Origin: Ruditapes philippinarum
Taxonomy: Eukaryota
DNA length: 64,000 nucleotides
Assembly: GCF_026571515.1 (NCBI RefSeq)
Contig: NW_026864337.1
Location: 186,001 to 250,000, forward strand
Direction of reading: 5' to 3'
Shown here: positions 24,277 through 24,360 of the stretch, piece by piece
How positions within the stretch are numbered: the first letter of the stretch is position 1
Layout: every line of letters starts with the position of its first letter
Position numbers and translations under genes: made by a program
The notes under the pieces: generated by a model
The model's input: only the letters and a program-made list of their open reading frames with translations
Databases searched by the model: none
Told to the model about the DNA's origin: nothing

Positions 24277-24360
24277 AGAGTTACTCCGGAACTACGTCAT
24301 TATGGGTTTTTCCCAATATCAAATCACGTGACCCGGTACAAACAAACCGCAGCCATATTG
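24277..24360 (+). promoter_or_regulatory. Left terminus, putative promoter of the nuclease gene
   Basis: CCGGAACT (ETS-like), GGGTTTTTCC (kappaB-like; overlaps TxxGGGxT), TCACGTGAC (E-box), GCCATATTG (YY1-like). ATG is 134 nt from the end. Confidence 0.5.

What the first reader, a model, noticed from the sequence alone, without database searches (positions are those of the whole stretch)
24277..24360. Transposon ends are conserved blocks separated by spacers of fixed length but different sequence, and probably double as promoters
Seen: read inward, both ends are AG-N6-TCCGGAACT-N9-TGGGTTTTTCC-N9-ATCACGTGACCCGGTACAAACAAA-(5 or 12 nt)-GCCATATTG. Spacer lengths match exactly while sequences differ (agttac/ttgtta; acgtcatta/cgaccgatg; caatatcaa/aataccgat). 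This implies selection on helical phasing rather than a simple TIR. Both ATGs lie only ~100-135 nt from the ends. Inference: the blocks resemble ETS, Rel/kappaB (GGGTTTTTCC), USF/TFE E-box, Fox and YY1 sites. TxTGGGTT also fits the P-element THAP consensus TxxGGGx(A/T), so the transposase could autorepress both genes, and the kappaB-like site might make the element immune-inducible.
Basis: partly seen in the sequence, partly recalled or inferred. Interest (0 to 1): 0.7.

Follow-up and report, generated by a model that had tools for sequence, protein, structure and literature searches.

The report
Modular ends of an ISL2EU transposon
These are the two ends of a young two-gene animal jumping gene (ISL2EU type); three end blocks also sit at both ends of a gene-less relative and are likely the transposase's grip, while two blocks found only in the gene-carrying lineage likely serve as built-in promoters, an arrangement already known from other transposons.

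Summary
Observation confirmed. The feature is the left end of a 5,362-bp ISL2EU (PHIS) transposon (24277-29638, AT duplication). It carries convergent THAP-DDE transposase and YqaJ-exonuclease genes, both seen spliced in public runs. Blocks match 46/46 between the ends and spacers 5/24, all in register.

A gene-less ~215-bp MITE family (at least 156 sites) separates the jobs. At both ends it keeps AG-N6-TCCGGAA, TGGGTTTTTCC and GTACAAACAAA. It lacks the E-box and YY1-like blocks, and its inner block lies 8 nt nearer the tip. So the ETS-, kappaB- and Fox-like blocks are most simply transposition sites.

Tip-to-inner-block distance is fixed within a lineage (46 nt in both ends and two old relics). 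It is not helically phased across families: offsets between ends run 0-54 nt (P=0.15). The spacers are end-specific and inherited, not free.

Promoter duty is likely but unproven. Across 35 ends of 20 families, a YY1-like motif occurs in 15 (flanks 0), and E-box, CRE and DRE motifs are enriched. No start site could be mapped, and some contigs run past the tips. Immune induction has no support. P element and MuDR are the known precedents.

The parts
24277..29638 (.). Whole ISL2EU-type DNA transposon, 5,362 bp
   Evidence: inverted ends, Pfam domains, boundaries from other copies and contigs
24275..24276 (+). AT target-site duplication, left
   Evidence: sequence; contigs from other samples diverge here
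29639..29640 (+). AT target-site duplication, right
   Evidence: sequence; loose ends at 29640
24277..24293 (+). Left tip AG, 6-nt spacer and block 1 (TCCGGAACT); inferred cleavage tip plus transposase contact
   Evidence: kept with a 6-nt spacer in 16 of 16 and 15 of 16 scorable MITE ends
24294..24302 (+). Left spacer 2; holds a CRE-like ACGTCA (motif recalled)
   Evidence: sequence; CGTCAT also in the old relic L018
24303..24313 (+). Block 2 (TGGGTTTTTCC); inferred transposase site, kappaB/Dorsal-like only by look
   Evidence: kept at both MITE ends
24323..24335 (+). E-box part of the inner block (CACGTG at 24325-24330); inferred promoter element
   Evidence: absent from the MITE (1 of 55 copies, 0 of 32 ends); present or near-present in coding-lineage relics L016, L018, L102
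24336..24346 (+). GTACAAACAAA part of the inner block; inferred transposase (THAP?) site
   Evidence: kept at both MITE ends, 8 nt nearer the tip; GTACAAAC also at both ends of family L023
24352..24360 (+). YY1-like GCCATATTG, left; inferred promoter element
   Evidence: absent from the MITE (0 of 55); GCCATNTT in 15 of 35 ISL2EU ends against 0 of 35 flanks
29622..29638 (-). Right tip AG, spacer and block 1
29602..29612 (-). Right block 2
29569..29592 (-). Right inner 24-nt block (E-box plus GTACAAACAAA)
29548..29556 (-). Right YY1-like block; the 12-nt spacer before it holds CAGCTG
24411..26761 (+). Exonuclease gene, 4 exons (24411-24816, 25015-25153, 25400-25585, 25816-26761), 559 aa, YqaJ domain, weak SAP hit at the N-terminus
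   Evidence: Pfam, GT..AG joints, open translation
27500..29537 (-). Transposase gene THAP + HTH_Tnp_4 + DDE_Tnp_4; intron 28770-29330; frame broken near 27730 in this assembly copy; 3' end approximate
   Evidence: Pfam, joint in 4 of 4 runs, frame comparison with L012

Best explanation
These are the imperfect ~70-nt inverted ends of an ISL2EU transposon, and they are likely built of two modules: an outer set of blocks that the transposase would bind and cut at, and inner blocks that likely act as promoters for the two inward-facing genes. Transposition module (inferred): the AG tip, TCCGGAA at a fixed 6 nt, TGGGTTTTTCC 12-13 nt further in, and GTACAAACAAA. Tip-to-block-1 spacing is likely fixed by the geometry of the catalytic core. 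The inner site is likely bound by the flexibly tethered THAP domain, so its distance can differ between lineages (60 nt here, 52-53 in the MITE). Promoter module (inferred): the E-box and the YY1-like block, plus end-specific motifs inside the 'spacers' (CRE-like on the left, CAGCTG on the right). These would drive housekeeping-type transcription inward. The perfect 24-nt identity of the inner block likely reflects exchange between the two ends as well as selection. Because the modules interleave, bound transposase could damp both genes (untested).
For: Shown: ISL2EU anatomy. Clustered block identity between the ends. A gene-less MITE with 156 exact block1-N12/13-block2 sites against 2 in the reversed control keeps three blocks at both ends and lacks E-box and YY1-like motifs (1 and 0 of 55 copies; 0 and 0 of 32 ends picked on blocks 1+2 only). 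GGGTTTTTCC to GTACAAACAAA is 14 nt in the MITE (28 of 44 scorable matches) against 22 in both window ends. AT lies exactly 46 nt outside the inner block in two old coding-lineage relics, which also keep GCCATNTT at floating distances. In 35 ends of 20 families: GCCATNTT 15 (flanks 0, shuffles 0.4), CACGTG 7 (1, 0.9), TGACGT 8 (1, 2.0), ATCGAT 7 (0, 1.3); CpG 6.4 against 2.4 per 130 nt. Both genes are spliced at GT..AG. Precedent: P and Galileo THAP sites lie 41-80 bp inside, at different distances on the two P ends (PMC3688188 passages; PMC7776569 passages). MuDR transcribes two convergent genes from inside its TIRs (10.1101/2020.01.09.900282 passages).
Against: No binding or start-site data. 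Contigs holding the first exons run to or past the tips into flank in several runs (left: X3, X13; right: X1, X3), which fits read-through from host DNA or carried-over DNA as well as internal starts. The MITE's parent was not found, so it may come from a coding sister lineage that never had the E-box; then 'lost because no promoter was needed' fails. MITE copies inherit one founder, so retention is not an independent test per copy. Nine of the 15 YY1-like ends belong to one starred clade, leaving about six lineages; there the motif sits inside the block shared by both ends and could be a transposase site. Copies in other samples carry changes inside blocks (24308 in 2 of 4 runs, 24329 in 1 of 4). 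Relic L016 has block 1 but not block 2 and is 14 nt shorter; relics L018 and L102 have poor matches to block 1. No universal THAP motif was found.
Confidence: 0.62

Rival explanations
1. All five blocks are host transcription-factor sites held on one helical face, forming a phased, immune-inducible promoter at each end, with THAP autorepression.
For: Motif look-alikes in the sequence (recalled consensus patterns). Block centres about 19-20 nt apart. TxTGGGTT fits the TXXGGGX(A/T) consensus quoted in PMC10824691 (passage) in both ends and both MITE ends. 46-nt distance kept in two relics.
Against: Three blocks persist at both ends of a gene-less MITE with an 8-nt shift. The kappaB-like pattern is in 3 of 35 ends and 0 of 25 after dropping 5 families; ETS-like 2 of 25, not above shuffles; Fox-like 16 of 35 ends but 12 of 35 flanks; THAP pattern at chance level. 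No 10.5-nt period in 10 non-zero offsets (P=0.15). The YY1-like block floats from about 0 to 14 nt.
Confidence: 0.12
2. All blocks, E-box and YY1-like included, are transposition signals or leftovers of exchange between the ends, and the genes are transcribed mainly by read-through from host flanks.
For: Contigs cross the tips into flank. Raw RNA depth is low and shows no start site. The inner block is homogenised between ends in both the window family and the MITE.
Against: Several different host promoter motifs are enriched in many lineages, often at one end only. GCCATNTT always faces inward and lies upstream of the ATG. Read-through would not reliably serve two convergent genes in every insertion (inference).
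Confidence: 0.2
3. The pattern is an ordinary decaying TIR; the blocks are chance survivors with no functional meaning.
For: The spacers are homologous with one-letter shifts, so the ends do descend from one repeat.
Against: Mismatch clustering P=0.0005; the same blocks survive in four end types and in relics.
Confidence: 0.06

Closest known systems
ISL2EU group of the PHIS superfamily (PMC4482050 passages and supplement search; PMC4122938 passages)
   Same: AT duplication with A often outside it; THAP+HTH+DDE transposase plus YqaJ exonuclease gene; animal host; length near the ~4.8-kb mean; TIR within the reported 6-259 bp.
   Different: Tips start AG (A 23, T 7, G 5 at position 1 of 35 ends) rather than the usual GG. 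The passages read give no block-level map of the ends or promoter motifs; the two block strings searched for are not in that paper's 3 supplementary files.
Drosophila P element and Galileo ends (PMC7776569, PMC3688188 passages)
   Same: THAP-bearing transposase; short terminal repeat plus an internal site 40-80 bp in; distance may differ between ends (P: 53-63 against 41-51; ISL2EU families here: 11-15 nt in 5 of 13). Overlap of P's 5' site with its promoter and autorepression is recalled, not read.
   Different: Different transposase superfamily and duplication; a second gene; the P consensus is not enriched here; in this family the inner sites are in register.
Maize MuDR (10.1101/2020.01.09.900282 passages)
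   Same: Two convergent genes transcribed from within the TIRs; outer TIR part binds transposase, inner part holds start sites and host-factor sites.
   Different: MuDR TIRs are ~220 bp and near-identical; here ~70-90 nt, broken into blocks, with animal promoter motifs; start sites not mapped here.
MITE and autonomous partner pairs
   Same: A short gene-less element with the partner's terminal signals, AT duplication and hundreds of old copies.
   Different: The MITE's inner block is shifted by 8 nt at both ends and its own parent was not found.

Membership tests
ISL2EU (PHIS) | 2-bp AT target-site duplication | tested here: met
   window copy, 4 of 4 other family ends, and contig divergence points
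ISL2EU (PHIS) | Transposase with THAP, HTH and DDE_Tnp_4 domains | tested here: met
   Pfam E 2.4e-5, 4.6e-16, 2.3e-23; exons joined in RNA; frame broken near 27730 in this copy, open in L012
ISL2EU (PHIS) | Second ORF with YqaJ exonuclease domain | tested here: met
   YqaJ E 1.4e-11; 559-aa spliced frame
ISL2EU (PHIS) | Terminal inverted repeats, usually starting GG | tested here: met
   imperfect ~70-nt TIR, starts AG; the source says 'usually' GG
ISL2EU (PHIS) | DDE core falls in the ISL2EU clade against reference PHIS transposases | not tested
   the tree holds only this genome's copies
P-element-type end (works like) | THAP domain binds an internal site matching TXXGGGX(A/T) | tested here: inconclusive
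   pattern present in all four end types of this lineage but at chance level in 35 ends; binding not testable
P-element-type end (works like) | Transposase site overlaps the promoter and represses it | not testable with these tools
   needs reporter and footprint assays
MuDR-type dual-promoter TIRs (works like) | Two convergent genes, both transcribed | tested here: met
   GT..AG joints for both genes
MuDR-type dual-promoter TIRs (works like) | Start sites lie inside the terminal repeats | tested here: inconclusive
   no pile-up of starts in raw RNA; contigs cannot show starts and some pass the tips
Helically phased end array | Block distances vary only by whole turns (~10.5 nt) | tested here: not met
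   8-nt shift in the MITE; offsets 1, 2, 7, 11, 12, 13, 14, 15, 22, 54 give mean cosine 0.24, P=0.15
NF-kappaB-inducible element | Conserved kappaB site and induction on immune challenge | tested here: inconclusive
   site is lineage-specific and kept in a gene-less MITE; induction not testable

The most novel reading that the evidence does not exclude
ISL2EU elements as a group carry ~100-nt animal housekeeping promoters (YY1, E-box, CRE, DRE, CCAAT) interleaved with their transposase sites at both ends. Each lineage keeps its own tip-to-inner-site ruler (46 nt in this lineage, 8 nt shorter in the MITE, about one turn unequal in several others), and transposase binding shuts off both its own gene and the exonuclease gene. 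This recently mobile, two-gene-expressing family with a mapped minimal end would then be a ready system for a first ISL2EU transposition assay and for asking what the exonuclease does.
Probability: 0.3. Interest if true: 0.6.

Novelty: new member of a known kind. Interest (0 to 1): 0.4.

Why it matters
A 2022 paper states that no proof of activity had been reported for ISL2EU transposons (PMC9179366 passage), and the role of their second gene is called unknown (PMC4482050 passage). Here a family with insertions that differ between samples and two spliced genes comes with a natural deletion series (MITE and relics). That series predicts which end blocks are needed to move and which to transcribe, which makes a minimal-end transposition assay and a promoter dissection straightforward. 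The enrichment of strong housekeeping motifs also contrasts with the AT-rich 'blurry' promoters described for Tc1/mariner (PMC6446368, search listing and start of abstract only). The principles themselves, two-part ends and promoters inside TIRs, are known from P, Galileo and MuDR.

Tried and rejected
(1) Raw 'RNA' runs X21 and X22: 77% of laid reads run on unlike the stretch and loose ends carry GATC junctions, so they look like proximity-ligation DNA; dropped as expression evidence. X23 and X24 gave low, 3'-biased depth on the transposase gene, almost none on the exonuclease gene, no joints and no start pile-ups; this is no evidence either way on start sites. No listed holder was on record as RNA.

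(2) The pattern CCGGTACAAACAAA alone is weak (99 matches against 54 control), but it led to the MITE.

(3) Automatic end-finding gave mostly AT-rich false pairs. Ends were set by short inverted matches plus AT, or by paired-copy boundaries. No ends could be placed for many fetched loci, including the closest decayed coding relative L099.

(4) The search for the MITE's autonomous parent found none.

(5) L016's 14-nt shorter end was first read as a sister architecture, then set aside as a single decayed copy, because L102 keeps block 2 and the 9-nt spacer.

(6) A link between THAP lineage and inner-block motif is only suggestive. The window's nearest row in the tree is L023, which shares GTACAAAC, but that fork is weak. 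A GGC core recurs in most other families' shared blocks (not tested statistically).

(7) The primary paper on the THAP consensus was not held; the consensus was taken from a citing passage.

(8) Earlier scan notes: none by sequence or by the first word set.

Full report
Observation. The left end begins at 24277 and the right end at 29638 on the minus strand. Both read AG, 6 nt, TCCGGAACT, 9 nt, TGGGTTTTTCC, 9 nt, a 24-nt identical block, 5 or 12 nt, GCCATATTG. Blocks match 46 of 46 and spacers 5 of 24. Mismatches are clustered (17 runs, P=0.0005 in 200,000 permutations; span chosen after the fact). The 24-mer has 2 matches in the window and 0 expected. The ATGs lie 135 and 102 nt from the tips.

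Element. The 5,362-bp element has an AT duplication and two convergent genes. The minus strand encodes THAP, HTH_Tnp_4 and DDE_Tnp_4; the plus strand encodes a YqaJ exonuclease. That is the definition of ISL2EU in PMC4482050 (passages) and PMC4122938 (passages). Four other copies at 96-99% identity, none holding both ends in the stretches fetched, give two left and two right ends, all with AT outside. Contigs from other samples leave the window's sequence at 24275 and 29640 into other flanks, so insertions differ between samples. The transposase intron is joined in 4 of 4 contig runs. The three exonuclease introns are joined in X13 (3 of 3) and X1 (2 of 3), and not in X3 or X4. The spliced exonuclease frame is open for 559 aa. 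The window's transposase frame breaks near 27730; reads and contigs show one more letter there and copy L012 reads through, so this may be an assembly error.

A natural deletion test. An exact search for part of the inner block led to an old, ~215-bp gene-less MITE whose copies are about 70-85% alike. The genome holds 156 exact block1-N12/13-block2 sites against 2 in the reversed control, and 117 against 0 for a second MITE pattern. I examined 55 copies drawn from the first 30 loci of two searches. Tip to TCCGGA was 6 nt in 16 of 16 and 15 of 16 scorable ends. Block 1 to block 2 equalled the window's distance in 23 of 28 matches at one end; at the other it was equal in 8 and one longer in 12 of 22. 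GGGTTTTTCC to GTACAAACAAA was 14 nt in 14 of 24 and 14 of 20 matches, against 22 in both window ends. CACGTG was in 1 of 55 copies and the YY1-like motif in 0 of 55 (a few copies were oriented wrongly). An independent set picked on blocks 1 and 2 only gave 14 nt in 11 of 32 ends, 13 or 15 in 4, 20 in 2, 48 in 1 and no match in 14, with no E-box and no YY1-like motif. So the ETS-, kappaB- and Fox-like blocks go with mobility, while the E-box and YY1-like blocks go with the coding lineage. This is an inference with two limits: MITE copies share one founder, and the parent was not found.

Spacers. They are not free sequence. The window's right spacers 1 and 2 match MITE end A at 5 of 6 and 6 of 9 letters, and the left ones match end B at 4 of 6 and 3 of 9. 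The crossed comparisons give 2/6 and 3/9, 0/6 and 2/9; left against right gives 1/6 and 2/9 (majority letters of 20 and 6 ends). Left and right spacers also align with one-letter shifts, which suggests compensated indels. The left spacer 2 holds ACGTCA, and the right last spacer holds CAGCTG, seen in 4 of 35 ends and 0 flanks.

Length is held within the lineage. Two old relics, L018 (left type) and L102 (right type), have AT exactly 46 nt outside the inner block, as in the window, though their block 1 is poorly matched. A third relic, L016, has 32 nt and lacks block 2. All three keep GCCATNTT at floating distances of about 0 to 14 nt. Within the family, L012 lost a letter in spacer 3 and gained one in the E-box, and L013 has an extra T in block 2; both may be assembly errors. 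Contigs from other samples show changes inside block 2 (24308, 2 of 4 runs) and the E-box (24329, 1 of 4); 28 further rows were not shown.

Other families. I fetched 34 of the 93 transposase matches and 20 further loci. Ends could be placed for 20 families, 15 with both ends and 5 with one. A shared inner block was found in 13 of the 15. Offsets between ends were 0, 0, 0, 1, 2, 7, 11, 12, 13, 14, 15, 22 (or 33) and 54 nt. The ten non-zero values show no 10.5-nt period (mean cosine 0.24, P=0.15). A short tip repeat plus a separate inner block is thus general in this genome's ISL2EU elements, and exact register is not. Position 2 is G in 31 of 35 ends and positions 8-11 lean to TTTC/TTCC, which fits a tip contact at a fixed distance.

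Promoter motifs. Thirteen recalled patterns were counted in the first 130 nt of the 35 ends, against flanks and 400 dinucleotide shuffles, with no correction for multiple tests. Counts are ends (flanks, shuffle mean): GCCATNTT 15 (0, 0.4); CACGTG 7 (1, 0.9); TGACGT 8 (1, 2.0); ATCGAT 7 (0, 1.3); CCGGAA 7 (2, 1.6); CCAAT 5 (0, 2.3; not significant); kappaB-like 3 (0, 0.7); Fox-like 16 (12, 5.1); TNNGGGNW 10 (6, 10.3). I then dropped the window's family and four families first spotted through their GCCAT block (10 ends). In the remaining 25 ends GCCATNTT was in 5 (0.3 expected), CACGTG 5, ATCGAT 7, CCGGAA 2 (not significant) and kappaB-like 0. The ends are 42% GC against 30% in flanks, with 6.4 against 2.4 CpG per 130 nt. 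One end was set one letter too far out, and one family's tips lack AT. Nine of the 15 YY1-like ends are one clade, so about six lineages carry it. This supports promoter duty for ISL2EU ends in general but not an immune-specific reading.

Start sites. Not found. Two raw runs look like proximity-ligation DNA; the other two show low transposase RNA without starts. Contigs cannot show starts, and some run past the tips into flank, which leaves read-through open.

Mechanism. Shown: block anatomy, duplication, splicing of both genes, and which blocks the MITE keeps. Inferred: the transposase core reads tip plus block 1 at a fixed 6 nt; block 2 and GTACAAACAAA are further transposase (probably THAP) contacts whose distance is set per lineage; the E-box, YY1-like and spacer motifs start inward transcription; exchange between ends homogenises the inner block. 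Untested: autorepression. Confidence 0.62.

Comparison and novelty. P and Galileo have internal THAP sites, unequally placed on P's two ends. MuDR transcribes two convergent genes from its TIRs. Three searches (ISL2EU with promoter; with promoter/YY1; with subterminal/binding site/MITE) listed no title or abstract opening on ISL2EU end structure or promoters. I read listings only, the library lacks most subscription journals and Repbase Reports, and bioRxiv supplements were closed. The element is a new member of a known kind, and its end map is a useful, testable extension. Interest 0.4.

Noticed in passing
window 27730-27731: The transposase frame is broken by one missing letter in this copy; reads and contigs from other samples show the extra letter and copy L012 is open, so it may be an assembly error.
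   Followed up: yes
G000, e.g. L055-L084, L105-L168: An old ~215-bp MITE family with AT duplications and this element's outer end blocks; at least 156 exact sites; three copies lie in tandem ~180 nt apart on C4466.
   Followed up: partly
G000, 93 transposase and 88 YqaJ matches: The genome holds at least 20 ISL2EU families, several with multiple near-identical copies; tips can start AG, TG, GG or AC.
   Followed up: partly
runs X21, X22: Filed as RNA-Seq but behave like proximity-ligation DNA (77% chimeric, GATC junctions).
   Followed up: no
window 29540; L012, L014 and reads: Other copies carry an 8-10 nt duplication-like insertion between the right YY1-like block and the transposase ATG.
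   Followed up: no
reads on window 29601-29635: A 35-nt relative of the right end, probably a MITE end, sits inside a well-transcribed host RNA.
   Followed up: no
window 29800-33381: A second element with long inverted arms (pieces of 54-189 nt, 89-94% complementary) lies 160 nt right of the ISL2EU copy.
   Followed up: no
window 1088-3726 and 42185-44197: A duplicated stretch about 41 kb apart at 94-98% identity; a sulfotransferase frame lies at 3345-4280.
   Followed up: no
window 10364-11290 (-): A 308-aa frame with weak HSP70/actin-like ATPase hits.
   Followed up: no
window 34594-35752 and 16819-17745: Two arrays of ~145-nt units, partly inverted relative to each other.
   Followed up: no
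window 24411-24500 and 25130-25450: The exonuclease protein begins with a weak SAP-like hit and holds a CxCxxG..CxH SWIM-like motif (label recalled).
   Followed up: no
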